Below are positions 18,101 through 43,956 of a stretch of DNA of 64,000 nucleotides, in pieces (within the stretch, counting starts at the first letter, position 1; every line of letters begins with the position of its first letter). Location of the stretch: contig JALSSR010000035.1 of assembly GCA_026984135.1 (NCBI GenBank), forward strand, positions 6,529-70,528. The letters are read 5' to 3'. The notes beneath the pieces were generated by a model. It was not told the DNA's origin. It ran no database searches and saw only the letters and a list, made by a program, of their open reading frames with translations. The DNA comes from Bacteroidales bacterium. GTDB lineage: Bacteria; Bacteroidota; Bacteroidia; Bacteroidales; JAADJA01. The position numbers and the translations under genes were made by a program.

Positions 18101-18551
18101 ACTGAACAAAATTTTTATTGAATTTAATCATATTCTTTCTTCTAATGAGGAGAAAAAGGATTTGGAACTTATCTATCGTAAAAATCCGGATATTGATAAT
18201 CGTTTTATTAATACCGATGTGGAAAGATTAAATCAGGTATTCAGGAACATCATTACAAATGCAATAAAATTCACGGCTTATGGTACTATTGAATTTGGCT
18301 GTGATTTTGACAATGACGGTTATTACAGATTTTATATCAAAGATTCCGGAATTGGAATTCCTGCTGATAAACATATGTTAATTTTTGAAAGTTTCAGGCA
18401 GGTTGATGAAACCGAAACAAGAACTTTTGGCGGAACAGGGCTTGGCCTGGCTATTTCGAAAAAAATTGTAGAGATTTTGGGTGGTAAGATATGGGTCGAA
18501 TCCGAAGAGGGAAAAGGTTCGGTTTTTATATTCACTCATCCTGCCGACTAA
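15162..18551 (+). CDS. Multi-PAS sensor histidine kinase (no receiver domain)
   Basis: About seven PAS/PAC-like repeats (recurrent ...DITERK... PAC ends) precede HisKA (FLANMSHEIRTPMN) and HATPase_c (DSGIGIP...GGTGLGLAI). Confidence 0.9.
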   Translation: MAVNKNDITFWLELFEEGPDMFFIVDVSGRINSVNLFGAGHLGYTKEELTGKSVWKVVYKDDLPYVKSKIAEIIRNKTELGELEFRKITKDGKLLFVHERTKLLLNSNNEVEKILIICRDISERKVTEDKLIEEEEKYRTLANNINVGLYRSTADKNGHFIEVNPALVEMFGYESKEEFMKLTVSDLYMNPEDRAEFQEVISKQGSVKGRKVLLKHFDGTTFPASISTVVVKDKNGKPKYYDGIVEDVSYMEKAQENIRKREEQYKSLFNLSPSGVILLDKSGTIIDVNPAYSEIFGYDIDELAGQKVDMLVHPDFKSEVKENIQRILNGEVLRKVVKSVAKDDSIVYLELFEKRIELPDGSFGVLSIANDITERVLIEKKLKKEHHLSEYYRKLFEGVISATPYPIFFKDKEGNYLGCNNAFTEQLGVTFDEVAGKKVYEIWPDEKSMEYHREDMDLMKNPRKVVSERIIKDKNGNNRTVLFSKDVFYDENGNVAGLVGAYADITERKRIEEELRESEEKYRLIVEKQTDLVVKVDKEGRYLFVSPSYCRTFGKTEEELLGKSFMPLVHKDDVENTKKAIEALSKPPYKVYHEQRALTKDGWRWLSWVDDAVLDENNNVKEIIGVGRDITEIKKNQEAVKLSEQSYKNLFNSTNDAIYVLNEKGEFIDVNKGAEKMYGYPHEFFIGKTPVDLSAPGLNDLDDTFERLVKAFNGEPQQFEFWGLAKSGRIFPKEVKLYPGTYFGEKVIITFAQDITERLKAEEEIRKLSRAIEQSPTIFVITDLVGNIEYVNPAFSDITGYSKEEAIGENPRILKSGKTPEELYKELWETLSSGNEWHGQFINRKKNGELYWESANIYPLKNEAGNITHFIAIKEDITIQKKLEQELIDAKEKAEESDRLKSAFLANMSHEIRTPMNAILGFSQLLADENITNIDKKQFINLIHTSGNSLMNIINDIIDISRIEAGEFKVIKKIYDVDNILNKIFIEFNHILSSNEEKKDLELIYRKNPDIDNRFINTDVERLNQVFRNIITNAIKFTAYGTIEFGCDFDNDGYYRFYIKDSGIGIPADKHMLIFESFRQVDETETRTFGGTGLGLAISKKIVEILGGKIWVESEEGKGSVFIFTHPAD

Positions 18552-22275: not shown

Positions 22276-25200
22276 ATGAAAAAGCTATATCTGTTAACTA
22301 CACTGATTACGATTTTCTTTACTGTTAATGCTGAAAACATCAGATATCCCGATCACTGGGGGAAACAAGGATTATCTGTGGTTTCACAAAACAGTAATTC
22401 CGTAACAATCAATTTTTCAATTGAATCATTTGGTATTTCAAACAAACTGCTCAACGGGAAAACGGTTCAGGAAATATCCCTGTCCGGTGTTTTTCTTCCC
22501 GGGACAGAGGGAGCACCAAATCTTCCGGCAATGAGCCGTTTTATTGCAATTCCCGAAGGAGCAAATGCAGAACTGGCAATTATCAGCTTCAGAAAGGAAA
22601 TTTTTGAGAATGTTGATATTGAACCTTCACCGGTAATTCCCTGGGACACCGAAGAAGGACCGCTGAAGTACAAAAAAGATTATGAGATTTACTCTGAGGA
22701 TGCTTTTTATCCTGATAATCCGTTTCAACTTTCGGAAAGGACGGAATTGAGAGGAGTGGATGCCGTTATTTTGGGAATAACTCCGTTTCAATATAATCCG
22801 GTTACAAAACAGTTAATTGTTTATCGCGATTTAAAGGTTATGATTTCGTTTAAAGGAGGAAATGGTAATTTTGGTGATGACCGGTTAAGAAGTCGTTGGT
22901 GGGATCCCATTCTCAGAGATGCTTTCCTGAACGAAAGTTCAATCCCTGCTATTGATTATAACAAATTGTCATCGGGTAAGGATGAAACAGGTTGTGAATA
23001 CCTTATAATAACTCCTAACGGAGCTGAGTTTCAGCAGTGGGCTGATTCTTTGAAGGTTTTCCGTACAAATCAGGGCATCCTCACAAAAGTTGTTACTCTT
23101 GATGAAATTGGAGGTAACAATGTCAACACAATTGAGAATTATTTGAATGATGCATATAATACGTGGGATATTCCACCGGCAGCCTGCCTTATAATGGCTG
23201 ACTTCGGTACTAATCCCGAGAACAGGATAATTGCACCAATCTGGGATAATTATTGTGCTTCGGATAATATATGGGGAGATGTCAACAACAATAATCTTCC
23301 GGATATTGTGATGGCAAGGATGACCGCTCAAAATGCGGAACAGTTGGAAACTATGGTTACAAAGGTTATTGATTATGAAAGAAATCCGCCATCTTCAGAG
23401 TATTTTTACATGCACCCTGTTACAGCACTGGGATTTCAAACGGAAAGATGGTTTCAAATATGTTCTGAGGCAGTAGCAGGATTTTGGGAAAATGAACTGG
23501 GAAAAGAGACCGTTAGAATCAATAAGACCTATCAGGGAAATCCTATGACTGATCCCTGGTCAACGGCATCTAACACAGGAGTAGTCTTAAATGTTTTCGG
23601 GCCTAACGGTCTCGGGTATATACCTTCTGCCCCTGCACAGGTCGGTTGTACATGGAGCGGAAGCGCCGGTGATGTTACAGACGCCATTAATGCGGGTTCT
23701 TTTATGCTTCAACACCGTGATCACGGTGGTGAAACCGGATGGGGAGAACCCTCTTTTCACAGTAGTGATATCAGCAGCCTGACGAATACTGATTTAACAT
23801 TCATCTGGTCGGTTAACTGCCTGACCGGCAAATATAACCTGTCGGGTGAATGCTTTGCCGAAAAGTTTCACAGATATAAATATAACGGACAAAATGCAGG
23901 TTGTAACGGAATTGTTGCTGCTTCGGAGGTTTCCTATTCTTTTGTTAACGACACATATGTGTGGGGAGCCTATGATAATATGTGGCCTGACTTTCTGCCA
24001 CAATATGGCAGTAATCCTGAATACAGAGGGATATTGCCTGCCTTTGCCAATGCAGCAGGAAAAATATTCCTGTGGCAGTCAAGTTGGCCTGCAAATCCTG
24101 ATAATAAAGAGGTAACCGTTAATCTTTTCCATCTTCATGGAGATGCCTTTATGACTGTATATTCCGAAATGCCGCAGGAACTTACCGTTCTGCAAAATGA
24201 AGTATTACTTGGAGGACAGTCATTTATAACAATTACGGCGGATACGGCAGCATTAATAGGAATAACACTCAATGGCGAACTGATTGGCTCGGCAATTGCA
24301 ACTGGTGAGCCAATTGATATTCCCATACAGCCACTGACACCCGGAGAAGAGATTCTCGTGACGGTTACTAAACAAAACTTTTTCAGATACGAGCAATCCG
24401 TTGAGGTCGTGTCTCCCGATATTCCGTATGTCGTTTATAAATCGCATACTCTTAATGATGAGGCCGGAAACAATGATGGGAAAATGGATTATGGTGAGAC
24501 GATCATGCTTACTGTAGAACTTCAGAATATCGGATTGGTTCAGGCAGATAATGTATCTGCTACATTGAGTGCTGATAATGAATATGTTGAAATTACCGAT
24601 GGCTCTGAGGTTTATGGGAATATGACGGCTAATGCAACAATATCCATGACTGATGCTTTTGCTTTTAATGTGGCTAATGACATTCCCGATGATCAAAATA
24701 TTGTTTTTACCCTTGAAGCGACTGATGGTGCGGAGATATGGACAAGTCATATTGTCTTAAAATCGCATGCTCCCATACTTGAATTCATTGATTTTTCTGT
24801 TTCCGATGCTTCCGGAAATAATAACGGACGGATTGAACCGGGTGAAACCGGTGAGATAACGGTAACAGTTGGGAACAACGGCTCTTCCGATGCATTAAAT
24901 GTCATTGGCGAACTTATCAGCAATAATGAATATATTGAAGTTACTAACTCTTCACAATCATACGGAACGCTTTCCGGAAATTTAGTTGTTCAGAAAACAT
25001 ATACTATCACTGCCGACCCGGATACACCCGAAGGTTTTCAGTCTGTTTTCGATTTTAATATTTCAGCCGATTTGGGAATAACCGGATTTGGTGATTTTTA
25101 TATTGTTATTGGCAGATATACTGCCCTTATCCTTGATCTGGATACCAAGAATTACTCCGGCCCCGGAATTTATGAGACATTTAATGACATGGATATATTT

Positions 25201-26025
25201 TCAGAATATACCACGGAGTTTCCTGATGACCTTAATCTGTATAAAAATATCTTTGTGTGTTTAGGCATCCATTTTACAGGACATACATTAACAAATAGTG
25301 AAGGTAATAAACTCAAAGAATATCTCTTAAACGGCGGAAACCTTTATATGGAGGGAAGAATTACCTGGTCTGAAGATCCTGCAACACCTGTGCATCCCTA
25401 TTTTAATATAGCTTCTCAGGATACATCGTGGTTTCAGTATGAGTTCATTCAGGGAATAGAGGGAACATTTACCGGTGGAGTTAATTTTGAATACGATGGT
25501 GAAAATGCTATCGGTCACTATGCTTTAGCTCCTGAAGGTAATGCCTTTGCCGTTTTTCAAACTCAGGAACCGGAATATATTTGCGGAATTGCCAATGATG
25601 CCGGGGACTACAAAACAATAGGAACCTCATTCGAATTCGGGAAGATGCTGGACGGAGAGTCACCTTCGACAAGGGTTGAGCTTATGCAACAGGTACTGAA
25701 CTGGTTTGACGGTATGGTAACCGGAAATGAAATAGCAGATAATATAAGTTCGGACAAAAGTATGTCGGTTTTCCCCAATCCTTTTAACACTGAAACGACC
25801 ATTAGTATCGAATTGCAATCGGGCTCTGATGCCACACTGAAGATTATAAACAGTGAGGGACAGGAAATACGGACACTGATTGATAATAAAACTCTTTCAT
25901 CCGGAAAAACAGATGTAACCTGGGACGCTAAAAACCGTTATGGTAAGGATGTCCCTCCGGGATTATACTTCGGAATTCTTACAACGGATTCAAAGACAGA
26001 AATATTAAAACTTATAATTCAATAA
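22276..26025 (+). CDS. T9SS-secreted gingipain-like C25 cysteine peptidase (paralog 1)
   Basis: It has a C25-like layout: a propeptide region, ...ACLIMADFG...ASDNIWGDV...PDIVMARM, a His motif MLQHRDHGGETGWGEP and a Cys motif FIWSVNCLTGKYN. This is followed by CARDB-like domains, the shared ~200-aa module, and the CTD (SVFPNPFNTETTI...GLYFGIL). Confidence 0.8.
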   Translation: MKKLYLLTTLITIFFTVNAENIRYPDHWGKQGLSVVSQNSNSVTINFSIESFGISNKLLNGKTVQEISLSGVFLPGTEGAPNLPAMSRFIAIPEGANAELAIISFRKEIFENVDIEPSPVIPWDTEEGPLKYKKDYEIYSEDAFYPDNPFQLSERTELRGVDAVILGITPFQYNPVTKQLIVYRDLKVMISFKGGNGNFGDDRLRSRWWDPILRDAFLNESSIPAIDYNKLSSGKDETGCEYLIITPNGAEFQQWADSLKVFRTNQGILTKVVTLDEIGGNNVNTIENYLNDAYNTWDIPPAACLIMADFGTNPENRIIAPIWDNYCASDNIWGDVNNNNLPDIVMARMTAQNAEQLETMVTKVIDYERNPPSSEYFYMHPVTALGFQTERWFQICSEAVAGFWENELGKETVRINKTYQGNPMTDPWSTASNTGVVLNVFGPNGLGYIPSAPAQVGCTWSGSAGDVTDAINAGSFMLQHRDHGGETGWGEPSFHSSDISSLTNTDLTFIWSVNCLTGKYNLSGECFAEKFHRYKYNGQNAGCNGIVAASEVSYSFVNDTYVWGAYDNMWPDFLPQYGSNPEYRGILPAFANAAGKIFLWQSSWPANPDNKEVTVNLFHLHGDAFMTVYSEMPQELTVLQNEVLLGGQSFITITADTAALIGITLNGELIGSAIATGEPIDIPIQPLTPGEEILVTVTKQNFFRYEQSVEVVSPDIPYVVYKSHTLNDEAGNNDGKMDYGETIMLTVELQNIGLVQADNVSATLSADNEYVEITDGSEVYGNMTANATISMTDAFAFNVANDIPDDQNIVFTLEATDGAEIWTSHIVLKSHAPILEFIDFSVSDASGNNNGRIEPGETGEITVTVGNNGSSDALNVIGELISNNEYIEVTNSSQSYGTLSGNLVVQKTYTITADPDTPEGFQSVFDFNISADLGITGFGDFYIVIGRYTALILDLDTKNYSGPGIYETFNDMDIFSEYTTEFPDDLNLYKNIFVCLGIHFTGHTLTNSEGNKLKEYLLNGGNLYMEGRITWSEDPATPVHPYFNIASQDTSWFQYEFIQGIEGTFTGGVNFEYDGENAIGHYALAPEGNAFAVFQTQEPEYICGIANDAGDYKTIGTSFEFGKMLDGESPSTRVELMQQVLNWFDGMVTGNEIADNISSDKSMSVFPNPFNTETTISIELQSGSDATLKIINSEGQEIRTLIDNKTLSSGKTDVTWDAKNRYGKDVPPGLYFGILTTDSKTEILKLIIQ

Positions 26026-26055
26026 ATAAATACAAATAATTTCAACTTTGTAACT

Positions 26056-29000
26056 ATGAAAATTTCATTTAAAAATTTCAGATTTACTGCCCTGCTTTTA
26101 GTGGCAGTCACTTTTTTAGCAACGGCTTTAAAAGCCGATGAAGTGAAGTATGACGACAGTTGGGGAAAGCAAGGCTTTTCCGTAACTACTCAAAAATCGT
26201 CGGGATTGACAATTAACTATTCAATCAACTCATTCAGATTACAAAACAGCCTGATTAACGGCGAAGCAATGACAAAGATCGAGCTTCCTGGCGTTATGCT
26301 CCCAAATAATGAAGGTGCACCTGATTTGCCGGGAACAGGCCGCTATATTGCTATTCCTAATGGTGCAAAAGCTTCGGTAAAAGTTATTGCAACAAGAACC
26401 GAAAAATTCACCGGTGTTGAGGTTGCCCCTTCACCGAGAATTCCCTGGGATACCGAAGACGGGCCTCTGGATTACAATAAGGATCAGGAAATATATTCGG
26501 CTGATCAGCTATATCCTGCTAATCCGGTTATCCTTTCCGAACCTGATGTCATAAGGGGTGTTGATGTTATTATGCTGGGAATTACTCCGTTTCAATATAA
26601 TCCGGTCACAAAAGAGCTCATTGTTTACAGAGATTTTAAAATTGAAGTAACTTACGAAGGCGGAAACGGTCAGTTTGGTGATAACAGACTGCGCAGTCGC
26701 TGGTGGGATCCGATGCTGAAAGATATGATCCTCAACAGTGAATCTCTCGCAAAAGTTGATTATAACAACCTTTATAAAGGTGCAACAAAAGAGACCGGTT
26801 GTGAATACCTTATCATAACTGCAAATAATGCAACTTATCAAAGTTGGGCCGACTCAATTAAAGAATTCAGGACGAAGCAGGGAATACTTACAAAAGTTGT
26901 TACTGTTGATGAGGTTGGAGGAAACAATGTCAATGCCATTGAAAGTTATGTTAATGATGCTTACAACACCTGGGACATTCCACCGGCAGCCTGTCTTCTT
27001 ATCGGTGATTACGGTTCCAACGGGGATATGAATATTATGGCTCCCATTTGGGATAACTATTGTGCTTCCGATAATATTTATGCGGACGTAACTAACAATA
27101 AAATGCCGGATATTGTATTTGCAAGAATACCTGCCGGAAATACATCCGAACTGGAAATTGAAGTAACCAAGTTTCTTAATTATGAAAGAAATCCGCCGAC
27201 AAGCGAATATTTTTATAATCATCCCATCACAGCCCTCGGTTTCCAGACCGAGAGATGGTTTCAAATCTGCTCCGAAGCTGTTGCCGGTTTCTGGGAAAAT
27301 GAACAAGGTAAAAGCACAGTCAGGATCAATAAAACATATCAGGGTAATCCTAACAGCGATCCATGGTCAACTGCAACAAATACGAGTACAGTGGTAAATA
27401 CTTTCGGACCTAATGGTCTCGGCTATATTCCGGCTACTCCCGGACAGGTAAACTGTACATGGTACGGTAGTGCAAGCGACGTAGTAAATGCCATAAACAG
27501 CGGAGCATTTATGCTTCAACATCGTGACCACGGTTATGAGCAAGGCTGGGGTGAGCCCTCTTTCGGAAGTAGTAATATCAACAGTCTAAATAATACCGAC
27601 CTCACGTTTATTTGGTCAATAAACTGTCTTACGGGAAAGTACAATCTGTCGAGCGATTGCTTTGCCGAAAAATTCTTACAACGTACTTCGGGTGGAAATA
27701 ATGCTGGAGCACTGGCCATTGTTGCAGCTTCGGAAGTTTCGTACTCCTTTGTTAACGATACTTATGTTTGGGGTTGCTATGACAATATGTGGCCTGACTT
27801 TTTGCCGACTTACGGAACCACACCGGATTCCAGGGGCGTTTTACCTGCTTTTGCAAGTGCTGCCGGAAAATATTTCCTGCAACAGTCAAGCTGGCCGTAC
27901 AACTCCGGAAATAAAGAAGTTACCTACAACCTTTTTCATATGCTGGGTGATGCTTTTACAACGGTTTACTCTGAAGTCCCGCAGCTTCTTACTGTAACTC
28001 ACGAACCCATATTCTTCTCGGGACTGACCTCTTTTGAAATTACTGCCGACGAAGGCTCCTTGATAGCCTTAACCGTTGATGGTGAAATTATTGGTACCGG
28101 AGAAGGAACAGGATCTCAAATTGCAATTCCCATTGAATCACAAATGCCGCAAAGTACAATTATTGTTACCGTTACAAAACAAAATTACTATCGCTATGAA
28201 TCTCAGGTGGAGGTTCTTCCTCCGACCGGGCCGTATATCGTTAAGGATTCATATTATATAACTGATGATGGTGTTCTTGTAAATGGGGATATGAATCCGG
28301 ACGAGAATATTGAGCTTACGGTTACTTTGAAAAATATTGGAGTTGAACTTGCTGAAAATGTTTCGGTTATGCTTTCTTCAGATGATCCGTATATTACGAT
28401 AACAGATGACAATGAGGTTGCCGGAAATATTTCATCGGGTGCACTGGTAACCATTGAGAACGGCTTTTCCTGGTATGTCCATAACGATATTCCGGATTTG
28501 CATTCCGTACTCTTTACTTTGACTTCAACAGACGGAGACAATACCTGGGAGACTCAGTTCAGTATCAATGCCTTTTCACCTGTTTTGGAAATAGGTGATT
28601 TCATAATTGATGACTCAGAAGGAAACAATAACGGAAGACTTGACCCCGGTGAAACTGCCGTTGTAAAGATAGAAACAACAAATAACGGCTCTTCCTTTGC
28701 ATTGACTACACATGGTATGCTTACGGCAACATCTCCGTTTATAACAATGGAAAACAATACTTACGATATGAATGTAATTGCAATTGGTTCAACCAAAACG
28801 GCGGAATTTACAATTACCGCCGATGCAAATGCACCCAATGGAACTGCATATCTGCTGCAATATAAGGCTCAATCTTTGGGATTTATCGTTGACAATGTCT
28901 ATTCACAAAATATCGGCTTTGCTTCCGAAGACTGGGAGACAGGCGATATGACTAAATATGACTGGCAAACATCCGGCGATGCCGACTGGACAATTTCGGA

Positions 29001-30384
29001 AGAGTCGCCTTACGAAGGAACATATTGTGTTAAGACAGGTGCCATAGGTGACGGAGAAAATACCGCACTTTCAATTAATTATGTTGTGGGAGAGAACGGT
29101 ACAATTTCATTCTACTACAAAGTCTCATCACAGCAAAATTATGATAAGCTGAAGTTTTATGTTGACAATACCGTCAAAGCACAGTGGTCGGGTGAAATTG
29201 ACTGGACACAGGTTACTTATTACAACATTTCTCCGGGAGAACATACTTTTAAATGGGCTTACATCAAAAGTGCAAATACCTCAAGCGGCAGCGACTGCGG
29301 ATGGATTGATATGATCTATCTGCCGGATCCTGTCACTGTTACGGCTTTTGCAGGTGATGATGCTTCCCTTTGCGAAAATGAAGTGTTCAATTGTGAAGGA
29401 TTCGGTTCTCCTTCGGCTACTTTTGAATGGGCTACATCGGGAACAGGAACCTTTGAGGATGTAACCGACCCGGCAACAGTTTATATTCCGGGTGAGGAAG
29501 ATTATCAGTCCGGCTCGGTTGTCCTTACCTTGACTGCTACCGGCTCCGGACAGACTTCAAGTGATGATTTGACACTCTCGCTTCATTATGCTCCTGTCGC
29601 TGAGGCAGGTAATACTCTTGAAGCCTGCAGTAATTCGTTTATTCCTGATGCATTGGCGGAAAACTATCAATCAATTATATGGACAACAACAGGCGATGGA
29701 ACATTTGATGACAACACTTTGGTTACTCCCGAGTATGTTGCAGGCGAAACCGATATTTCAAATGGTGAAGTAACCCTGATAATGACGGTTAACGGATATG
29801 CACCCTGCGGTACAGTGACCGACACATTGGTTGTTTCGGTAACGGCAGCACCCGAAACCTTTGCCGGTGATGACCACGACATCTGTGAAGGACAAACTTA
29901 CACTATTTCCGATGCTCTTGCCGAAAACTATAACGATATTTTATGGGAAACATCCGGTGACGGATCTTTTGACGATGCAACGGTTATGAATCCGGTTTAC
30001 ACTCCCGGTCCCAATGATATTGATGCTGAAGAGGTAACATTGACAATGACTGCATCCGGAAATGGGGTTTGTGAAGCTATTAGCGATGATATGTTGCTGA
30101 CTATCAAATGTCTCGGAATTGATGATAATTATCTTAGCTCTAAAATCTCCGTATTCCCCAATCCAAATACCGGAGATTTTACAATTGATATTGATGCCGA
30201 AATTAATGATCCGGTGAATATCAAAATCCTCAATTCGCTTGGAAATACGGTTTACACTATTGATGATGTTAAAATTAATAACAACAGGAGTGTCCCGCTT
30301 AATATTGATGTTAAGGCAGGGCTATATTATTTATATATTGAAAACGATGAACATTCAATTGTTAAAAAAGTAATTATACAATAA
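26056..30384 (+). CDS. T9SS-secreted gingipain-like C25 cysteine peptidase (paralog 2) with jelly-roll-like domain and three ~75-aa Cys repeats
   Basis: The catalytic region is highly similar to 22276..26025 (HRDHGYEQGWGEP; FIWSINCLTGKYN). The C-terminal half differs. The CTD reads SVFPNPNTGDFTI...GLYYLYI. Confidence 0.8.
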   Translation: MKISFKNFRFTALLLVAVTFLATALKADEVKYDDSWGKQGFSVTTQKSSGLTINYSINSFRLQNSLINGEAMTKIELPGVMLPNNEGAPDLPGTGRYIAIPNGAKASVKVIATRTEKFTGVEVAPSPRIPWDTEDGPLDYNKDQEIYSADQLYPANPVILSEPDVIRGVDVIMLGITPFQYNPVTKELIVYRDFKIEVTYEGGNGQFGDNRLRSRWWDPMLKDMILNSESLAKVDYNNLYKGATKETGCEYLIITANNATYQSWADSIKEFRTKQGILTKVVTVDEVGGNNVNAIESYVNDAYNTWDIPPAACLLIGDYGSNGDMNIMAPIWDNYCASDNIYADVTNNKMPDIVFARIPAGNTSELEIEVTKFLNYERNPPTSEYFYNHPITALGFQTERWFQICSEAVAGFWENEQGKSTVRINKTYQGNPNSDPWSTATNTSTVVNTFGPNGLGYIPATPGQVNCTWYGSASDVVNAINSGAFMLQHRDHGYEQGWGEPSFGSSNINSLNNTDLTFIWSINCLTGKYNLSSDCFAEKFLQRTSGGNNAGALAIVAASEVSYSFVNDTYVWGCYDNMWPDFLPTYGTTPDSRGVLPAFASAAGKYFLQQSSWPYNSGNKEVTYNLFHMLGDAFTTVYSEVPQLLTVTHEPIFFSGLTSFEITADEGSLIALTVDGEIIGTGEGTGSQIAIPIESQMPQSTIIVTVTKQNYYRYESQVEVLPPTGPYIVKDSYYITDDGVLVNGDMNPDENIELTVTLKNIGVELAENVSVMLSSDDPYITITDDNEVAGNISSGALVTIENGFSWYVHNDIPDLHSVLFTLTSTDGDNTWETQFSINAFSPVLEIGDFIIDDSEGNNNGRLDPGETAVVKIETTNNGSSFALTTHGMLTATSPFITMENNTYDMNVIAIGSTKTAEFTITADANAPNGTAYLLQYKAQSLGFIVDNVYSQNIGFASEDWETGDMTKYDWQTSGDADWTISEESPYEGTYCVKTGAIGDGENTALSINYVVGENGTISFYYKVSSQQNYDKLKFYVDNTVKAQWSGEIDWTQVTYYNISPGEHTFKWAYIKSANTSSGSDCGWIDMIYLPDPVTVTAFAGDDASLCENEVFNCEGFGSPSATFEWATSGTGTFEDVTDPATVYIPGEEDYQSGSVVLTLTATGSGQTSSDDLTLSLHYAPVAEAGNTLEACSNSFIPDALAENYQSIIWTTTGDGTFDDNTLVTPEYVAGETDISNGEVTLIMTVNGYAPCGTVTDTLVVSVTAAPETFAGDDHDICEGQTYTISDALAENYNDILWETSGDGSFDDATVMNPVYTPGPNDIDAEEVTLTMTASGNGVCEAISDDMLLTIKCLGIDDNYLSSKISVFPNPNTGDFTIDIDAEINDPVNIKILNSLGNTVYTIDDVKINNNRSVPLNIDVKAGLYYLYIENDEHSIVKKVIIQ

Positions 30385-30488: not shown

Positions 30489-30496
30489 TATATTTG
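30489..30496 (+). promoter_or_regulatory. Bacteroidota-type -7 promoter box TAtaTTTG
   Basis: It matches TAnnTTTG and lies 40 nt upstream of the ATG at 30536. Confidence 0.4.
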
Positions 30497-30535: not shown

Positions 30536-32176
30536 ATGAAAAGAAAATTACTTGCATTTGTTTTTGCCCTTGTTGCAACTGTTGCTTTCTCGCAGACGGT
30601 TCCACGGGATAAAGTTGTTATTGAGATCGGCACGGCCACTTGGTGAACTTACTGTCCATATGCAGCAGCAGCGGCTGACGATATGATAGCAAACGGTTTT
30701 GATGTTGCCGTACTCGAACATCACGTATCTTCATCCTATTCAGGTTTTACAAACCAATATTCCCAGGCAAGGATAAGCTATTACGGAATAGGTGGAATTC
30801 CGGAATCCATTTTCGACGGAGTATTAAGTGTTCTGGGTGGTGGTTCTAGTACTTATAATTCATTTGTTTCAAAATATAACCAGCGAATTGCGATACCTTC
30901 GGATTTTACTATTTTGGTAAACGGCATGAATGAAGGACTTGATTACACCGTAGTGCTAACTATGGAAAATGTTGTACCGAATTCAAGTTCCAATTTAGTG
31001 GCTCATCTTGCTATAAACGAGTCGGGACTTCAATATCAGGGTACTACATACAATTTTGTAACCAGGATGTTTGTTCCTAATGCAAACGGTACTGATGTTG
31101 ATTTTTCATCTAATCCGATGCAAACGGTTACTCTGAATTTCAGTATGGATCCTTCCTGGAATCTTGAGAACTGTGAGTTTATAGCATTTATTCAGGATAA
31201 CTCCTCAAAAGAAATACTTCAGGCAACAAAAGTTCCGGTACTTGATATAGTTCCGTTGACAACAAACAATGCAGCCATACAAAATATGGATATGGTACCT
31301 GTAACTAATTGCGCCGGTGATGTAGCACCCCTTGTAACTATTTCGAACCAGGGAGCACAGAGTTTAACATCACTGAATATCAATTATGTTGTAAACGGTG
31401 AAGCTTCCGAGACTTATGCCTGGACAGGTGATCTTGCATTTCAGGCTACGGAGGATGTACAGTTACCCCCGCTTTCATTTGAAATTCAGGATGATAACGA
31501 CCTGGTAGTTTACGTTACAGATCCTAACGGAAATGATGATGAGGACACTTCAAACGATACTATTGCCACTTCCTTCACCTCTGCTGTTCAGACAGTTCCC
31601 TACATCTTTCTGTTCATAAAACTTGACGACAACCCACAGGAGATAACCTGGGAATGTAAAGATTCGGAAGGACAGGTTCTTTTTAGTCACGGGCCCTATT
31701 CCACCCCCAATGCTTTTATAAAAGATACGCTCTTTATTACCGATAACGGATGTTATACATTTGAGATCAATGATGCCGGTGGTGACGGACTTACAGGTGC
31801 CGGATTTTACAGGCTGACCGGTGGCGACGGTACTGAGATTATCTTTAACACTGATTTTGAAGGAAGCAACGAACTGGTACAGTTTGGTGTGCTTGGTACC
31901 GGTGTGGAATCACTAAGCACCGAAGATTCTTTCAGCATATTCCCAAATCCGTTTGAAGACTATACTAATGTTAGTTTCTCAATGAACAAATCTGACAATG
32001 TGGAATTGAAAGTATATGATATTACGGGTAAGGTTGTATTCGGTAGTAAGCCCGAAATGTTAAATGCAGGCAGCCACTCTGTAAAAATTGATGCCGGTAA
32101 TTTTAATTCGGGTATCTATTTTGTCAGTCTTAAAATTGGTGATGAACTTATGACGAAAAAAATAACAGTAAATTAA
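30536..32176 (+). CDS. T9SS-secreted thioredoxin-fold protein with an in-frame TGA (30644..30646) at the first position of a WCxxCP-type redox motif; selenoprotein candidate, or a pseudogene
   Basis: The ATG at 30536 is in frame with track ORF 30683..32176 (147 nt apart). The upstream part encodes a signal peptide, MKRKLLAFVFALVATVAFSQ, then ...VVIEIGTATW-[TGA]-TYCPYAAAAADDM.... A later GIPESIFDG fits the thioredoxin cis-Pro loop. The CTD at the end reads FSIFPNPFEDYTNVSF...GIYFVSL. Confidence 0.65.
30657..30685 (+). promoter_or_regulatory. Candidate SECIS-like stem-loop downstream of the in-frame UGA
   Basis: CATAT(G)CAGC-AGCAGCG-GCTG(ACG)ATATG forms 5+4 bp around a small internal loop, with a 7-nt G-containing apical loop about 21-27 nt after the UGA. 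Confidence 0.3.
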
Positions 32177-32198
32177 AAAATCATTGATTATATTTTAA

Positions 32199-32227
32199 AG
32201 CGATATCCTTGTGGTATCGCTTTTTTT
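32199..32227. terminator. Bidirectional terminator between convergent genes
   Basis: AAAGCGATA-TCCTTGTGG-TATCGCTTTTTTT. Confidence 0.55.
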
Positions 32228-32242
32228 GTTTCCAGAATGGAA

Positions 32243-39398: not shown

Positions 39399-41636
39399 AT
39401 GAAAAAGAGTTTATTTTTCATTTTTTTACTGGTTCCGGTATTTTCATTGTTATCTGTTTCACAAACTTATGTTGATCTTACCGACAATATGCAGATAGAA
39501 AGTAATTCTTGGATAATGATAAACCCCGGAAATTACACCATACCCGATATGGGGAATGACGGGCTTATTCAAATTGACGGCAAGGAAAATATCATTATTG
39601 ACGGTGACGGTGTAACCGTTGACGGTACAAACTACCAGGGATATATGATAAAGATCAATAACTCCTCAAACATAAAGATCAGACATTTTGATGCGGTACG
39701 TAATTACTATTATGCGGTTTACATAACCAATTCGGATCATATTCAGATAAATGACAATGATTTTTCGTGGAATAAGGTTGATTCCACCGGCTGGATAAGT
39801 ATCTGGACAGATTATCAGAATGCTCTCGGCGGAGGTGTGATGATGTATCAGTCCGGCAAGGCTCAGATATTTGATAACAATATGAAGTTTCAGAACGACG
39901 GTGTTGCCCTTTATCATTGCGACAGCATATCGGTTCAGAATAATGACTTTTCGTGGAACACCTCCTTCGGGATCAGAATGTATTTTACCGATACTTGTAA
40001 TATTCAAAATAATAACTGCTCTCATGTTAACCGTCCTTTCACCGACCCCAGCGATTGTGCTGCAATATTGTTGATTGTCTCCAATGAAAACTATGTTGCA
40101 TACAATGATTTTTCTTTTTCGGGCGACGGTATTTTCCTTGGGCAGTTTCAGTATTCGCAAATTCCCAACAACAACTATTTCGGATATAACGAATGTTCAT
40201 ACTCGCCGCATAACGCAATAGAAGCAACTTTTGCCGACGGGAACGTTTTTGAATATAATAACTGCAATTACAGCCATTACGGACTGTGGCTCGGATACTC
40301 TTTCAATTCAATCGTAAGGTTCAATGAAATCAACGGGAATCAATATGCCGGAATTGCCATTGACCGCGGGTTTAATAACCTGATGGAAAATAATGAGATA
40401 AAGTATAATCCCACGGGTATCCTGCTTTGGGAAGGCGACCCGATACCGCCCTATCAGGATCAATACTCGCAGGATTATATGATTGCCGGAAATAACATTG
40501 AAGGAAACGGGGTTGCAGTTTCGCTGGACAATACGGAACAGACGGCATTGGTTTCAAACACGATAAACAATAACCGGAACGGGATATACATTACCGGTGA
40601 TGCTGAAAACGACACCTTGATTTACAACGAATTTTACAATACCGCGGTTTATCATATCGAAAACAGGTCAACGGATGATATTCGCGCATACGACAACGGC
40701 TACATTGTTGACGACACGGGAATTATTGCCTGTAAAATATTCGATAAGGAAGATGACCCGGCTTACGGTGAGGTGTTATGGCAACCTTTTTTGCCGGGCG
40801 AAGACCCTCAGTTTCAATACGATCATCCGCAGGATATGGCAGAGCCTGATGCCGTATGGTACGCATATCCCGAAGCTTGCTGGGGGTACGGGGATACTGT
40901 TCCGACTACAGTGGAATGGGATTATACCGAAAAGGTTAAGGGAGAGGCTTCCGTGCATGTTGCAACCGGCAACGGATGGGATATCGGGGTAATGTACAGG
41001 CCTGACGGTGATTCCATTGCTTCGTGGGCATTGACGGAGCAGGATACTCTTGTCTTTTGGATCAAGTCCGTTAATAACTCCCAATATGGATTTCAGTTTT
41101 GTAATGTGGTACTCGGCGATTATTGCGGTAACTATTACAATTTTTCGGCCTCGGCTTCTACCATCCTCAATCCTTCAATAGGCCAATGGAAAGAGATAAG
41201 AATGCCCCTTGCAGGTGTTTGGCCCTGGGCAAGAACCGCCTTCGGTGACATATCTTTTGATGATATCAACTATGTAGAGATACATGCCGATACCTGGGAT
41301 TACGGATTTGAACTTTGGATTGACGGAGTGACCTTTAATCCGCTTACTACCGGTGTTTTTTATAACGGAAAAGAGGCAAGCACTTTCAATGTTAAAATAT
41401 ATCCCAACCCTCTAACAAATATATCGGTTTTGAAATTTTATTTGTCACAAAAAAGTACCGTATCATTATCAATATCGGATGTTCACGGAAGGGAAATAAC
41501 GCTTCTCAATAATATTTTTATGGAAAAGGGTACCCATAAGATTTTGCTGGACAGGAAGAACTTTGCACCCGGTTTTTATACTTACAGACTTTCTGACGGT
41601 AAATTTTTCACACAGGGAAAGTTTATAGTTAGATAG
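39399..41636 (+). CDS. T9SS-secreted right-handed parallel beta-helix repeat protein (NosD/pectate-lyase-like fold)
   Basis: It has a signal peptide, many repeats of the type N.I.NN.......GI.L..S..N.I and the CTD VKIYPNPLTNISVLKF...GFYTYRL. Confidence 0.75.
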   Translation: MKKSLFFIFLLVPVFSLLSVSQTYVDLTDNMQIESNSWIMINPGNYTIPDMGNDGLIQIDGKENIIIDGDGVTVDGTNYQGYMIKINNSSNIKIRHFDAVRNYYYAVYITNSDHIQINDNDFSWNKVDSTGWISIWTDYQNALGGGVMMYQSGKAQIFDNNMKFQNDGVALYHCDSISVQNNDFSWNTSFGIRMYFTDTCNIQNNNCSHVNRPFTDPSDCAAILLIVSNENYVAYNDFSFSGDGIFLGQFQYSQIPNNNYFGYNECSYSPHNAIEATFADGNVFEYNNCNYSHYGLWLGYSFNSIVRFNEINGNQYAGIAIDRGFNNLMENNEIKYNPTGILLWEGDPIPPYQDQYSQDYMIAGNNIEGNGVAVSLDNTEQTALVSNTINNNRNGIYITGDAENDTLIYNEFYNTAVYHIENRSTDDIRAYDNGYIVDDTGIIACKIFDKEDDPAYGEVLWQPFLPGEDPQFQYDHPQDMAEPDAVWYAYPEACWGYGDTVPTTVEWDYTEKVKGEASVHVATGNGWDIGVMYRPDGDSIASWALTEQDTLVFWIKSVNNSQYGFQFCNVVLGDYCGNYYNFSASASTILNPSIGQWKEIRMPLAGVWPWARTAFGDISFDDINYVEIHADTWDYGFELWIDGVTFNPLTTGVFYNGKEASTFNVKIYPNPLTNISVLKFYLSQKSTVSLSISDVHGREITLLNNIFMEKGTHKILLDRKNFAPGFYTYRLSDGKFFTQGKFIVR

Positions 41637-42159: not shown

Positions 42160-43956
42160 ATGAAGCAAGATAAAAAAAAGATATACAAAGAACTACTTGA
42201 AAAGTATGAGACACTTTTCGGACAAAGCCGTAAAAGAGGCAGGCAATTGTCACTGTTGCGCCTTGCGGTTTTTCTTTCCGGAATTATTTTTATTTACATA
42301 TTTGCCGCGTCCGGCTCCGTGCCGGGTGTCGTAATCAGTTTAGTATCAACTGTTCTGGCCTTTGTCTTCATTGTGAAATATCATTCGGAAATACTTAATA
42401 AAAAGAGACTTTATCAGGCTTTCATTAAAGTCAATGAGGATGAATTAAAAGCGTTCGAAGGAGAAACAGGTCAGTTCAGGGACGGAAAAGAGTTCAACAA
42501 TCCCGACCATCCGTTCGTCAACGACATTGATATTTTCGGGAAACGTTCGGTTTTTCAGTTTCTTGACAGGTCTGCCACTCATCCCGGATATGAAAAACTT
42601 GCGGGATGGCTGCTGAAGCCGGAATCGGATAAAGAGGTCATTTTAAAGCGGCAGGAAGCTGTGGCAGAACTTAAAGAGAAACTTGACCGGAGACAAAAAT
42701 TCAGAGCCACGGGCCTTACACTTGATGATGACGGTACGGGAAGGCAACGTATTGTAAACTGGATAAAACGGGAGCCGCTGTTTTCTAATCCCGTTTACAA
42801 AATACTTGTTTTTATCATTCCACTTATTACGGTTTTATTGTCGGTATTGCTTTCAACCGGCCATATTGGGTTTCAGCTTTTTATGATTTGGTTACTTATA
42901 CCCTGGGGAATTGCAGGTGGCGTTAGCGGTCGTACAAACCGGAGGCATGAGATGGTAAGCAAAACCTCGGCAATACTTAATAATTATTCACTGTTGCTTG
43001 CCGAAATTGAGAACCTTGAAGTAAATTCCACGTTGGTTAATGAGCTAAAGATGAGTCTGATGGCAGACAGTCAATCCTCTTGCAAAAGCATTAAAAAGCT
43101 GTCGAAAATACTGAACGCTCTTGATCACAGGATGAATCTGATAGCCTGGGCTTTCCTGAATGGACTTTTTCTTTGGGATATCCTGCAAATGATGCGTCTT
43201 GAGAGTTGGCAAAAGAAAAACAGGGAGAATGTTGAAAAATGGTTTGATGTGATTGCCGAGATGGATGCACTTAACAGCCTTGCAAACTACTATTTCAATA
43301 ATGATGATTATATCTTCCCGGAAATTCTTGACGGAGAGTTTTCAATAAGATCCCAAAATCTTGGACATCCGCTTATAAAAAGGGAACAGCTTGTCGGCAA
43401 CGATGTTAATATTGCGAAAGGAGAGTTTATAATTGTCACAGGTGCAAATATGGCGGGCAAGAGCACTTATCTGCGAACCGTCGGTGTGAATCTTATTCTG
43501 GCTATGACGGGAGCGCCGGTGTGTGCCGAAAGCTTTGTGTTTAAACCCGTTGAGCTTTTTACAAGCATCCGCACCTCCGACTCCCTGACTGAAAACGAAT
43601 CGTACTTCTATGCCGAGTTGAAGCGTTTGAAGAGAATCATAGATGAGATAAAATCGGGAAAGGAGATATTTATTATCCTTGATGAGATATTGAAGGGAAC
43701 GAACTCAAAAGACAAACATACCGGTTCGGAGGCCCTTTTAAAGCAGTTAATTCAATACGGAGCAACGGGAATTATCGCAACACACGATGTAGCACTTGGT
43801 ATTCTGGAAAAATTGTTTCCGGGAAACATCAAAAACAGATGTTTTGAGGTTGACATTACAAACGACAAACTCACTTTCGACTACAAACTCCGCCCCGGAG
43901 TGTCGCAAAATATGAATGCTACAATTTTGATGAGGCAGATGGGGATCACAGTGTGA
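42160..43956 (+). CDS. Membrane-anchored MutS-related protein (MutS domain V ATPase only)
   Basis: The likely start is MKQDKKK at 42160, in frame with the track ORF. TM helices sit in the N-terminal half. Walker A is GANMAGKSTYLR, DEILKGTN is MutS-type, and the end reads ATHD. Confidence 0.8.
   Translation: MKQDKKKIYKELLEKYETLFGQSRKRGRQLSLLRLAVFLSGIIFIYIFAASGSVPGVVISLVSTVLAFVFIVKYHSEILNKKRLYQAFIKVNEDELKAFEGETGQFRDGKEFNNPDHPFVNDIDIFGKRSVFQFLDRSATHPGYEKLAGWLLKPESDKEVILKRQEAVAELKEKLDRRQKFRATGLTLDDDGTGRQRIVNWIKREPLFSNPVYKILVFIIPLITVLLSVLLSTGHIGFQLFMIWLLIPWGIAGGVSGRTNRRHEMVSKTSAILNNYSLLLAEIENLEVNSTLVNELKMSLMADSQSSCKSIKKLSKILNALDHRMNLIAWAFLNGLFLWDILQMMRLESWQKKNRENVEKWFDVIAEMDALNSLANYYFNNDDYIFPEILDGEFSIRSQNLGHPLIKREQLVGNDVNIAKGEFIIVTGANMAGKSTYLRTVGVNLILAMTGAPVCAESFVFKPVELFTSIRTSDSLTENESYFYAELKRLKRIIDEIKSGKEIFIILDEILKGTNSKDKHTGSEALLKQLIQYGATGIIATHDVALGILEKLFPGNIKNRCFEVDITNDKLTFDYKLRPGVSQNMNATILMRQMGITV

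What the first reader, a model, noticed from the sequence alone, without database searches (positions are those of the whole stretch)
30536..32176. In-frame TGA replaces the first Cys of a WCxxCP redox motif in a secreted thioredoxin-fold T9SS protein: selenocysteine (UxxC) candidate
Seen directly:
- The ATG at 30536 follows a TAtaTTTG box and opens a frame encoding a clean signal peptide (MKRKLLAFVFALVATVAFSQ).
- That frame continues VPRDKVVIEIGTATW, hits TGA at 30644-30646, and runs on without interruption as TYCPYAAAAADDMIANG... into the 497-aa track ORF. That ORF ends in a T9SS sorting domain.
- The sorting domain needs Sec-dependent export, so the signal peptide upstream of the TGA has to belong to the same protein.
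- The stop falls exactly where thioredoxin-fold proteins carry the nucleophilic Cys (W-C-x-x-C). A cis-Pro-like GIPESIFDG follows at the expected distance.
- TGA is an ordinary stop elsewhere in this window (dut at 60522-60524 and the mutS-related gene at 43954-43956), so a TGA-reassigned genetic code is unlikely.
- A stem-loop follows the TGA: CATAT-G-CAGC [AGCAGCG] GCTG-ACG-ATATG at 30657-30685. Its apical loop lies about 21-27 nt after the UGA, the region where bacterial SECIS elements sit.

Established knowledge: Cys/Sec exchange at the first position of CxxC is the classic signature of bacterial thiol-oxidoreductase-like selenoproteins.

Inference: a secreted, T9SS-sorted selenoprotein would be unusual. 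The alternative is a single-base TGY-to-TGA nonsense mutation, which would make this a pseudogene.
Basis: partly seen in the sequence, partly recalled or inferred. Interest (0 to 1): 0.86.

Follow-up and report, generated by a model that had tools for sequence, protein, structure and literature searches.

The report
Unannotated surface-secreted selenoprotein gene in Bacteroidales
The "stop" codon inside this gene almost certainly encodes selenocysteine in the active site of a secreted, thioredoxin-like surface protein; it is an unannotated, divergent relative of a selenoprotein family that was already predicted, so it is real but not a new kind of thing.

Summary
ATG 30536 opens a signal peptide, the frame meets TGA at 30644-30646, and it runs on uninterrupted to 32176 (546 codons).

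The selenocysteine reading is strongly supported by comparison:
- 19 distinct relatives (about 40-82% identical) carry TGA at the same column.
- 75 other relatives carry Cys there (W-C-x-Y-C-P).
- The peptide upstream of the TGA is conserved while its synonymous sites vary freely.
It exceeds both what the peptide alone would encode and what Cys-form genes show.

An AlphaFold model of a Cys ortholog gives a thioredoxin fold with the motif at the N-cap of helix 1. The nearest solved structure is P. gingivalis HBP35, a type IX secretion (T9SS) cargo with proven thioredoxin activity.

The Sec site is homologous to that of the predicted selenoprotein family GOS_C, curated as NCBIfam NF045500 "Omp28-related selenoprotein". 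The window protein scores below that model's cutoff (75.9 vs 200 bits), so it belongs to a sister clade.

Not tested: selA/B/C/D in the same genome, because none lie in the sequence available. Public records annotate only the truncated 497-aa ORF.

Verdict: a real selenoprotein gene, a new member of a known kind, of moderate interest.

The parts
30489..30496 (+). TATATTTG, a match to the Bacteroidetes -7 promoter consensus TAnnTTTG, about 40 nt upstream of the ATG
   Evidence: Read directly. The consensus is from established knowledge. Significance was not tested, and the sigma-70 scan is not informative for this promoter type.
30536..32176 (+). Full selenoprotein coding sequence, 546 codons plus TAA, with Sec at codon 37
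   Evidence: One uninterrupted frame apart from the TGA. Full-length Cys-form homologs cover 100% of it.
30536..30592 (+). Signal peptide (residues 1-19), with predicted cleavage before Gln20
   Evidence: The sequence MKRKLLAFVFALVATVAFS|Q. Equivalent signal peptides ending ...A|QQVPR occur in all 19 Sec forms and in the Cys forms. The cleavage site is inferred.
30608..31255 (+). N-terminal Omp28/HBP35-like domain (residues about 25-240): a thioredoxin fold followed by a beta-sandwich
   Evidence: PF11551 44.7 bits against a cutoff of 34.9. NF045500 75.9 bits over residues 25-247. AF2 model of the ortholog P0011. 5y1a HBP35 is the top hit by sequence and by fold.
30644..30646 (+). UGA codon 37, the proposed selenocysteine and attacking residue of the U-T-Y-C motif
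   Evidence: Aligned to Cys in 75 loci and to TGA in 19 distinct sequences. Aligned to U53 of a GOS_C selenoprotein read.
30653..30655 (+). TGT codon 40, the resolving Cys of UxxC
   Evidence: C40 is invariant in alignment A3. It corresponds to C51 of HBP35, which is needed for thioredoxin activity (PMC2907840).
30657..30685 (+). bSECIS-like hairpin. Numbered from the U of UGA as 1: pairs 14-17/39-42, 18-19/36-37 and 20-23/31-34, bulged A35 and A38, apical loop 30667-30673 (AGCAGCG)
   Evidence: 91% of cells are paired against 15-58% in slid controls. Four pairs show double-sided changes. Pair 21-33 joins two synonymous sites and is paired in 19 of 19 sequences with three pair types. Spacing is 20 nt, the loop is 7 nt with G at loop position 2, and MFE is -7.4 kcal/mol.
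30683..32176 (+). The truncated 497-aa ORF that public gene callers annotate, starting at Met50
   Evidence: It equals P0001. Named relatives are called 'hypothetical', 'T9SS type A sorting domain-containing' or 'Omp28-related outer membrane protein'.
30800..30802 (+). Pro89, the candidate cis-Pro of the thioredoxin fold, just before beta3
   Evidence: Invariant in A2 and A3. The model places it at residue 89, before strand 90-93.
31283..31915 (+). Two middle beta-sandwich domains (residues about 250-460) of unknown function
   Evidence: AF2 secondary structure of the ortholog. No Pfam match.
31937..32170 (+). T9SS type A C-terminal sorting domain (residues 468-545)
   Evidence: PF18962 at 1.6e-15 and TIGR04183 at 8.9e-13. 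PDB T9SS CTDs 8glk and 8glj match.
32197..32233 (+). Intrinsic-terminator-like hairpin and T-tract after the gene
22276..30384 (+). Two upstream C25 (gingipain-like) T9SS peptidase genes in conserved synteny; a possible functional partner, not part of the gene
   Evidence: Pfam families. tblastn synteny across Sec- and Cys-form loci.

Best explanation
The gene at 30536-32176 encodes one 546-residue selenoprotein.

**Decoding.** UGA at 30644-30646 is read as selenocysteine. The reading is directed by a small stem-loop in the coding RNA 20 nt downstream (30657-30685), which acts as a bacterial SECIS element bound by SelB with Sec-tRNA(Sec).

**Export.** The product has a Sec-pathway signal peptide, so it crosses the inner membrane unfolded. 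Its C-terminal type A sorting domain then takes it through the type IX secretion system. By analogy with other type A cargo, it ends up anchored to the cell surface.

**Activity.** The N-terminal domain is a thioredoxin fold with U37-T-Y-C40 at the N-cap of helix 1 and Pro89 opposite. It most likely works as a thiol:disulfide oxidoreductase cycling through a selenenylsulfide, as its Cys-form relative HBP35 does with C48/C51.

**What is shown:** the conserved in-frame TGA, the Cys/Sec pair, the covarying hairpin, the fold, the sorting domain, and homology to GOS_C and HBP35.

**What is inferred:** actual Se incorporation, SelB dependence, surface anchoring, redox activity, and the physiological substrate. 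The substrate is possibly the neighbouring C25 cysteine proteases or other T9SS cargo.
For: 1. **Cys/Sec pair.** 75 homologous loci have TGY at the column (W-C-x-Y-C-P). Sixteen fetched loci carry TGA there: L001-L004, L028, L081, L082, L085, L087-L095. With the window and the two L091 copies, that is 19 distinct sequences from independent assemblies and habitats.
2. **Truncated gene calls.** About 50 database homologs are called at about 497 aa and start just after the column, which is what gene callers do to selenoprotein genes.
3. **Upstream region is translated.** Upstream codons 21-36 are conserved as amino acids (VPRDKVVIEIGTATW), while their third positions vary (pairwise identity 0.36-0.47). 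This indicates translation in the same frame.
4. **Hairpin covariation.** 91.1% of cells are paired against 15-58% in slid registers. Four pairs and 20 cells carry double-sided changes, reached by 0 of 500 shuffles. RNAalifold independently finds the 6-bp core.
5. **Synonymous pair.** Pair 21-33 joins two third-codon positions and is paired in 19 of 19 sequences (A-U 15, U-A 3, G-C 1).
6. **Synonymous conservation.** Third-position identity in codons 38-52 is 0.74 against 0.49 in the rest of the gene, ranking 8th of 377 windows.
7. **Resampling control.** With each peptide held fixed, Sec forms keep 173 of 190 pairs against a null mean of 142 and a null maximum of 155 in 1000 trials. Close Cys forms show no excess: 168 against 163, p = 0.19.
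8. **bSECIS geometry.** The window's hairpin fits the published model (PMC13188914): 7-nt loop, G at loop position 2, 20-nt spacing, 4+2(+4) bp stem, and -7.4 kcal/mol for the 29-nt hairpin or -8.9 for 33 nt.
9. **TGA is a normal stop elsewhere in the window**.
10. **Precedent.** A GOS_C read from PMC2398784 scores 336.7 bits on NF045500. Its U53 aligns to residue 37 of the window protein: 32% identity, E 2e-11.
11. **Fold.** The AF2 model of ortholog P0011 has pLDDT 91.9 and thioredoxin topology. The best PDB match is HBP35, 5y1a, by sequence (E 2.6e-7) and by fold (E 1.6e-11, TM 0.59).
12. **Experimental analogue.** HBP35 has CxxC-dependent thioredoxin activity and is a T9SS cargo (PMC2907840).
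Against: - No tRNA-Sec, selA, selB or selD was found, but only the 64-kb window and about 300 kb of related loci could be examined. The machinery is untested, not shown absent.
- The window's hairpin alone is weak: -7.4 kcal/mol against the model's threshold of -7.5, fold z = -0.07, and synonymous-resampling p = 0.12.
- 8 of 19 relatives lack a G in the first two loop positions that the consensus bSECIS model asks for. They have GG at loop positions 5-6 instead.
- The 19 sequences are phylogenetically related, so the shuffle statistics overstate independence.
- The Rfam search found no match to this element.
- There is no experimental evidence of Se incorporation for this clade or for GOS_C. 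The 2026 review lists GOS_C under 'predicted', not 'experimentally verified'.
Confidence: 0.87

Rival explanations
1. UGA 30644 is read through without selenocysteine. A near-cognate or suppressor tRNA would insert Cys, Trp or another residue, and the hairpin would act as a general read-through stimulator. The genome would lack Sec machinery.
For: No Sec machinery could be seen in the sequence available. The hairpin is small, and 8 of 19 relatives do not fit the G-in-first-two-loop-positions rule.
Against: The column is the nucleophilic Cys of a CxxC redox motif, and it is homologous to the Sec of a curated selenoprotein family. The geometry (20-nt spacing, 7-nt loop) matches bSECIS. In lineages without Sec machinery, such a TGA would be expected to be replaced by TGY, as in the 75 Cys forms, rather than conserved across about 40-82% protein divergence. 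That expectation is inference.
Confidence: 0.07
2. UGA is a true stop. The locus would make a 36-residue peptide and, separately, a 497-aa protein starting at ATG 30683 that stays in the cytoplasm. This would resemble the internal-start 27 and 29 kDa forms of HBP35.
For: Gene callers choose this model. HBP35 is known to give truncated cytoplasmic products from internal Met codons (PMC2907840). An ATG lies 13 codons after the UGA.
Against: The 36 upstream codons are a signal peptide plus strand beta1 of the thioredoxin fold. They are conserved in frame in all 19 Sec forms with freely varying synonymous sites. The 497-aa product would lack beta1 and the redox motif and still carry a T9SS sorting domain that needs prior Sec-translocon export. 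The start at Met50 is not conserved, because several relatives have Leu or Val there or start elsewhere. A truncated by-product could still coexist with Sec decoding.
Confidence: 0.04
3. The TGA is a recent nonsense mutation or a sequencing or assembly error, which would make the gene a pseudogene.
For: A single TGY-to-TGA change would produce it. One relative, L028, does carry a frameshift later in the gene.
Against: The same TGA appears in two independent assemblies of this genome, ENA and Logan. It also appears in 18 other distinct sequences from other species and habitats, all with intact frames on both sides except L028.
Confidence: 0.01

Closest known systems
GOS_C / NCBIfam NF045500 'Omp28-related selenoprotein', predicted by Zhang & Gladyshev 2008 (PMC2398784) and listed in the 2026 review PMC13188914
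   Same: Both have a signal peptide, an Omp28-like N-terminal domain, and Sec at the homologous column in a U-x-Y-C-P motif just after strand beta1. The window's residue 37 aligns to U53 of a GOS_C read. Both have many Cys-form homologs. Both are predicted only, with no experimental proof of Se.
   Different: Identity is only about 32% over about 115 residues. The window protein scores 75.9 bits against the model's cutoff of 200, while the GOS_C read scores 336.7. None of 8 other relatives tested reaches the cutoff. The window clade adds two beta-sandwich domains and a T9SS type A sorting domain. Whether GOS_C proteins carry such a domain was not determined, because the read is incomplete.
HBP35 of Porphyromonas gingivalis (PDB 5y1a; PMC2907840, PMC3120885)
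   Same: Both have a signal peptide, the thioredoxin-like motif ...E-x-x-T-x-x-W-C-G-Y-C-P-G at the same place, a following beta-sandwich, and a T9SS C-terminal domain. HBP35 is the best PDB match by sequence and by fold. It has CxxC-dependent thioredoxin activity and is a surface-glycosylated T9SS cargo.
   Different: HBP35 has Cys, not Sec. It is shorter (344 aa), with only about 15% identity in the structural alignment. It binds hemin in its C-terminal half, and that property was not tested here. The window protein has extra middle domains.
Omp28 family (Pfam PF11551; NCBIfam NF033782 'Omp28 family outer membrane lipoprotein')
   Same: The domain matches above the Pfam threshold, 44.7 against 34.9 bits.
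   Different: The NF033782 score is far below its cutoff, 27.1 against 150. The window protein has an ordinary signal peptide and a T9SS CTD, not a lipoprotein signal. That last point is read from the sequence.
Exported UxxC thiol-oxidoreductase selenoproteins: DsbA-like, DsbG-like, thiol:disulfide interchange and Trx-like families in the prokaryotic selenoproteome tables
   Same: They share a thioredoxin fold, Sec at the first position of UxxC, a bSECIS just downstream in the coding region, and abundant Cys homologs.
   Different: They are different protein families. In the full-text library searched, no paper links selenocysteine to T9SS cargo: the only paper with both terms is unrelated, and none mentions both Omp28 and selenoprotein.

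Membership tests
Bacterial selenoprotein gene (Sec-UGA plus bSECIS) | In-frame UGA aligned to a conserved Cys in homologs (a Cys/Sec pair) | tested here: met
   75 Cys-form loci and 19 TGA-form sequences at the same column.
Bacterial selenoprotein gene (Sec-UGA plus bSECIS) | UGA-containing orthologs in other organisms, with conserved coding sequence on both sides | tested here: met
   The upstream peptide is conserved while its synonymous sites vary freely.
Bacterial selenoprotein gene (Sec-UGA plus bSECIS) | Downstream stem-loop fitting the bSECIS model: loop 3-9 nt, upper stem at least 4 bp, G in the first two loop positions, 16-37 nt from UGA, MFE of -7.5 kcal/mol or lower | tested here: met
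   In the window the loop is 7 nt (AGCAGCG, G at position 2), the spacing is 20 nt, the stem is 4+2+4 bp, and MFE is -7.4 for 29 nt or -8.9 for 33 nt, which is borderline. Covariation supports the structure. 8 of 19 relatives fail the G rule.
Bacterial selenoprotein gene (Sec-UGA plus bSECIS) | selA, selB, selD and tRNA-Sec present in the same genome | not testable with these tools
   None in the window or in about 300 kb of related loci.
Bacterial selenoprotein gene (Sec-UGA plus bSECIS) | Selenium shown in the protein (75Se labelling or mass spectrometry) | not testable with these tools
   This needs an experiment.
NF045500 Omp28-related selenoprotein (GOS_C) | HMM score at or above the curated cutoff of 200 bits | tested here: not met
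   75.9 bits. Relatives score 36-75 bits. A genuine GOS_C read scores 336.7.
NF045500 Omp28-related selenoprotein (GOS_C) | Sec in a UxxC motif at the family's conserved column | tested here: met
   BLASTP aligns window residue 37 with U53 of JCVI_READ_1092961114687.
HBP35-like T9SS thioredoxin-like cargo | Signal peptide, W-C/U-x-Y-C-P redox motif in a thioredoxin-like domain, and a T9SS CTD | tested here: met
HBP35-like T9SS thioredoxin-like cargo | Structural similarity to 5y1a | tested here: met
   Foldseek top hit with E 1.6e-11 and TM 0.59 normalised to the target. The model is of the Cys ortholog P0011, not of the window protein itself.
HBP35-like T9SS thioredoxin-like cargo | Hemin binding and thioredoxin (insulin-reduction) activity | not testable with these tools
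   Known for HBP35 only.
Thioredoxin fold | beta-alpha-beta-alpha-beta-beta-alpha topology with CxxC at the N-terminus of helix 1 and a conserved Pro before beta3 | tested here: met
   The AF2 model has pLDDT 91.9, with beta1 26-33, motif 37-40, alpha1 40-52, Pro89 and beta3 90-93. Weak profile hits to thioredoxins such as 1fo5, at E 0.006-1.
T9SS type A cargo | C-terminal sorting domain above the curated thresholds | tested here: met
   PF18962 57.5 against 27; TIGR04183 48 against 23.

The most novel reading that the evidence does not exclude
This would be the first recognised selenoprotein that is a type IX secretion cargo. It would be a selenol-based oxidoreductase displayed on the outside of the cell, co-evolved with the adjacent gingipain-like C25 cysteine proteases. 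Its job would be to keep their catalytic thiols reduced, or to manage the disulfides of T9SS cargo, in anoxic habitats. That would mean selenium-dependent redox chemistry operating extracellularly in Bacteroidales.
Probability: 0.25. Interest if true: 0.6.

Novelty: new member of a known kind. Interest (0 to 1): 0.4.

Why it matters
- **Annotation.** Public records for this whole clade call only a truncated 497-aa ORF with no signal peptide and no active site. Correct annotation restores a redox enzyme and flags these Bacteroidales MAGs as probable selenium users.
- **Linking two literatures.** GOS_C, an orphan 'hypothetical' selenoprotein family, now connects to HBP35, a biochemically characterised T9SS thioredoxin-like protein. 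That gives GOS_C-type selenoproteins a testable function.
- **Biology.** If the protein is surface-displayed, it puts a selenoenzyme outside the cell next to cysteine proteases.
- **Limits.** It does not open a new mechanism. The decoding signal, the UxxC motif and the Cys/Sec exchange are all textbook.

Tried and rejected
1. **Looking for Sec machinery.**
   - ARAGORN found no tRNA-Sec in the window or in 20 related loci.
   - Pfam on 20 window ORFs, plus the precomputed families for ORFs around the gene, showed no SelA, SelB or SelD.
   - This is uninformative, because only a small part of any genome was in hand.
   - I considered querying with a SelD sequence. I rejected it because the tool returns the 120 best hits with no genome link.
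2. **Rfam.** Nothing at gathering thresholds across the window. Only a chance lncRNA hit around the site in E-value mode.
3. **Single-sequence folding of the window's RNA.** Not significant. It would have wrongly suggested there was no structure.
4. **Metagenome scan.** Only 2 extra loci.
5. **Profile search with diverse N-terminal domains to reach named GOS_C proteins.** Only 10 hits, none named. The link was made through the 2008 paper's supplement instead.
6. **Scan of the window for other in-frame TGA candidates.** Only 30644 is credible. The rest lie in non-coding frames of known genes or at gene junctions.
7. **Second '36 aa + 477 aa' gene pair in L090.** Checked as a possible further Sec gene. 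It is not one, because the frame has stops.
8. **Reassigned genetic code.** Rejected, because TGA ends 3 of 35 long ORFs and also the dut ORF.
Full report
**1. The observation**

- ATG 30536 opens MKRKLLAFVFALVATVAFSQTVPRDKVVIEIGTATW.
- The next codon is TGA (30644-30646).
- The same frame continues TYCPYAAAAADDMIANG... without another stop to TAA at 32174-32176, 546 codons in all.
- The mechanical ORF list only reports 30683..32176, 497 aa.
- The C-terminus (residues 468-545) is a T9SS type A sorting domain above curated thresholds, and residues 80-235 match Pfam Omp28.
- The window has 39% G+C. Among its 35 long ORFs, 22 end in TAA, 10 in TAG and 3 in TGA. The mutS-related gene and dut both end in TGA. 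TGA is therefore a normal stop here and the code is not reassigned.

**2. Is the TGA conserved?**

A search of 5.8 billion proteins gave 178 homologs. The window's own call (P0001, 497 aa) and about 50 of the closest relatives all begin at 'MIANG...' or nearby, just after the TGA column. Homologs of about 550 aa cover the query fully and read ...EIGTGTW-C-xYCPGAAMGADDL.

I fetched DNA for 80 species-representative genomes, 2 metagenome contigs and 11 exact-protein look-ups.
- At the column aligned to 30644-30646, 75 loci have TGY (Cys). They come from Bacteroidales, WOR-3, Planctomycetota, Hydrothermia and others, plus one archaeal MAG.
- 16 fetched loci have TGA: L001-L004, L028, L081, L082, L085, L087-L095. 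With the window and the two L091 copies, that makes 19 distinct TGA-form sequences.
- Each of these has a signal peptide and the conserved VPR-[DE]-x-V-V-x-E-x-x-T-x-T-W in frame before the TGA, and an open frame after it. The one exception is L028, which is frameshifted about 100 codons later.
- Two independent assemblies of the window's own genome carry the same TGA.

A nonsense mutation or an assembly error is therefore excluded.

**3. Translation across the TGA**

Among 18 Sec-form genes, codons 21-36 are nearly invariant as amino acids. Their third positions are as variable as the gene average: pairwise identity 0.36-0.47 against 0.48-0.49. The stretch before the TGA is thus under protein-level selection in this frame. 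In the structure model it forms strand beta1 of the fold. It cannot be a free-standing 36-residue peptide.

**4. The RNA element**

Positions are numbered from the U of UGA as 1.
- All 19 sequences can form pairs 20-23/31-34 (CAGC/GCUG), 18-19/36-37 with A35 bulged, and 14-17/39-42 with A38 bulged. The loop is 7 nt (24-30).
- On the 19-sequence alignment A1, 91.1% of cells are paired, against 15-58% when the 3' partners are slid by 1-3 columns.
- Four pairs and 20 cells carry changes on both sides, such as CAGC/GCUG to CUGC/GCAG and UA/UA to GG/CC. No shuffle out of 500 reaches this.
- RNAalifold, given no hint, returns the 6-bp core with the bulged A.
- Pair 21-33 links the third positions of two Ala codons, so it is free of amino-acid constraint. 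It is paired in 19 of 19 sequences as A-U (15), U-A (3) or G-C (1).

Three controls address the fact that this RNA is also coding sequence.
- (a) In Cys-form loci the same columns form 6.0 of 10 pairs on average, against 9.1 of 10 in Sec forms.
- (b) Third-position identity in codons 38-52 is 0.74 against 0.49 for the rest of the gene, ranking 8th of 377 windows.
- (c) When synonymous codons are resampled with each peptide held fixed, Sec forms keep 173 of 190 pairs against a null mean of 142 and a null maximum of 155 in 1000 trials. The 23 closest Cys forms show no excess: 168 against 163, p = 0.19.

The null is already high for the 'PYAAAAADD' peptides, at about 8.6 of 10 pairs. The amino-acid sequence of helix 1 therefore seems itself to have been shaped to encode the stem. 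Cys forms read PGAAMGADD there.

Caveats:
- The window's hairpin alone is not significant (z = -0.07; p = 0.12).
- The sequences are related, so the statistics overstate independence.
[quoted passage not shown] The others have GG at loop positions 5-6.
- The window itself fits the published model: 7-nt loop AGCAGCG, 20-nt spacing and a stem of at least 4 bp. Its energy is borderline at -7.4 kcal/mol.

**5. The protein**

An AlphaFold2 model of the full-length Cys ortholog P0011 (53% identical, 49-sequence alignment) has mean pLDDT 91.9.
- It shows beta1 (26-33), the CxxC at 37-40 at the N-cap of alpha1 (40-52), then beta2, alpha2, Pro89, beta3, beta4 and alpha3. This is the thioredoxin topology.
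- A beta-sandwich follows and completes the Omp28-like domain. Then come two more beta-sandwich domains and the sorting domain.
- Pro89, W36, C37, Y39 and C40 are invariant across very diverse relatives.
- The best match in the PDB, by profile (E 2.6e-7) and by fold (Foldseek E 1.6e-11, TM 0.59), is P. gingivalis HBP35 (5y1a). Its N-terminus reads ...VVLEVFTAEWCGYCPG.

HBP35 is a T9SS cargo that is glycosylated on the cell surface. In vitro it reduces insulin faster than E. coli thioredoxin, and a C48S/C51S double mutant loses that activity (PMC2907840). This is the closest experimentally characterised relative, and it supports a thiol:disulfide oxidoreductase function for the motif.

**6. Relation to known selenoproteins**

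- NCBIfam holds NF045500 'Omp28-related selenoprotein'. The window protein hits it over residues 25-247 at 75.9 bits, below the 200-bit cutoff. Eight other relatives score 36-75 bits.
- The 2026 review of the prokaryotic selenoproteome equates NF045500 with 'Hypothetical protein GOS_C', with a UxxC motif and one Sec. It lists the family among those predicted rather than experimentally verified (PMC13188914).
- GOS_C was first reported in 2008 with 74 Sec and 312 Cys sequences, and was described as Trx-like with UxxC (PMC2398784).
- The 2008 supplement gives a GOS_C read...RVVMVEDFTGLN-U-PYCPAASFAIDSL. It scores 336.7 bits on NF045500.
- It aligns to the window protein at 32% identity (E 2e-11), with its U53 on the window's residue 37.

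The Sec site is therefore homologous to that of a known predicted selenoprotein family. The window's Bacteroidales clade is a sister branch outside the curated model, with a different C-terminal architecture.

No paper in the searched library mentions both Omp28 and selenoprotein. The only paper mentioning both selenocysteine and type IX secretion is unrelated. Public records name members of this clade 'hypothetical', 'T9SS type A sorting domain-containing' or 'Omp28-related outer membrane protein', and all are called as truncated ORFs.

**7. Context**

The gene has a Bacteroidetes-type TAnnTTTG box about 40 nt upstream (read directly) and a terminator-like hairpin downstream at 32197-32223.

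It follows two large C25 (gingipain-like) T9SS peptidase genes. C25 genes flank the homolog in most Bacteroidales loci, in both Sec and Cys forms. A functional link to these cysteine proteases is plausible, but it is pure inference.

**8. What remains open**

- None lie in the window or in about 300 kb of related loci.
- No tool gives access to the rest of these genomes.

Read-through without Sec therefore remains a minor rival (about 0.07). A truncated product from Met50 could coexist with Sec decoding, as happens with HBP35.

**9. Verdict**

- The selenocysteine interpretation is supported, with confidence about 0.87.
- It is a new, unannotated member of a known kind: the UxxC thioredoxin-fold bacterial selenoproteins, and specifically the Omp28/GOS_C superfamily.
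- Interest is moderate. The decoding and chemistry are textbook and the family precedent exists. The T9SS surface destination and the link between GOS_C and HBP35 are new and testable.

Noticed in passing
L028:10001-11700 (JAWKKM010000010.1): This Sec-form copy keeps the TGA and the hairpin, but the frame breaks after about codon 135. It is either a pseudogene or an assembly frameshift.
   Followed up: partly
L091:9869-11506 and L091:11513-13156: Two tandem paralogs, each with its own in-frame TGA and hairpin (WUYYCPGAAMGAEDL and WUTYCPGAAMGAADL). These supplied the compensatory CUGC/GCAG stem variants.
   Followed up: partly
L001 with L009 (JAOZOC01); L002 with L010 (CAYOZZ01): The same MAGs carry both a Sec-form gene and a Cys-form paralog of this family, so Sec and Cys versions coexist within one genome.
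   Followed up: no
window:30662-30685 (codons 43-50): Sec forms of the closest clade read P-Y-A-A-A-A-A-D-D where Cys forms read P-G-A-A-M-G-A-D-D. The SECIS stem appears to have reshaped the amino-acid sequence of helix alpha1, because the synonymous-resampling null is already 8.6 of 10 pairs for these peptides.
   Followed up: partly
window:15162-30384: This is a run of very large T9SS cargo genes upstream. An M14 peptidase with PKD domains ends at 22209. Two C25 gingipain-like peptidases follow at 22276-26025 and 26056-30384. The ORF at 15162-18551 was not annotated. Synteny with C25 genes is conserved in most Bacteroidales loci.
   Followed up: partly
window:35458-36405: An AhpC/TSA-redoxin gene (168 aa) is followed by a 134-aa short-chain-dehydrogenase fragment. 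In L088 the equivalent gene is 271 aa and is followed by a SnoaL-like gene that is absent here, which suggests a deletion in the window's genome.
   Followed up: no
window:47851-52470: A cluster of a COX1-like protein (443 aa), a CbbQ/NorQ AAA ATPase, a VWA (NorD-like) protein and a COX3-like protein. It resembles a nitric-oxide-reductase (norBQD-type) locus.
   Followed up: no
L074:2918-3196 (Methanomicrobia MAG JAGGSA01): An archaeal MAG encodes a Cys-form copy of the same domain (FTATWCTYCP) at the C-terminal half of a larger protein. This could be horizontal transfer or bin contamination.
   Followed up: no
window:30683-30685: The ATG 13 codons after the UGA is what gene callers use as the start. 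HBP35 is known to make cytoplasmic truncated forms from internal Met codons, so a truncated by-product here cannot be excluded. This Met is not conserved in all relatives.
   Followed up: partly
window:44169-46472, 52948-54471, 39399-41636, 56-862: Several further genes in the window end in T9SS sorting domains (FG-GAP/PKD, PKD, NosD/beta-helix, PKD_6). The region is rich in T9SS cargo.
   Followed up: no
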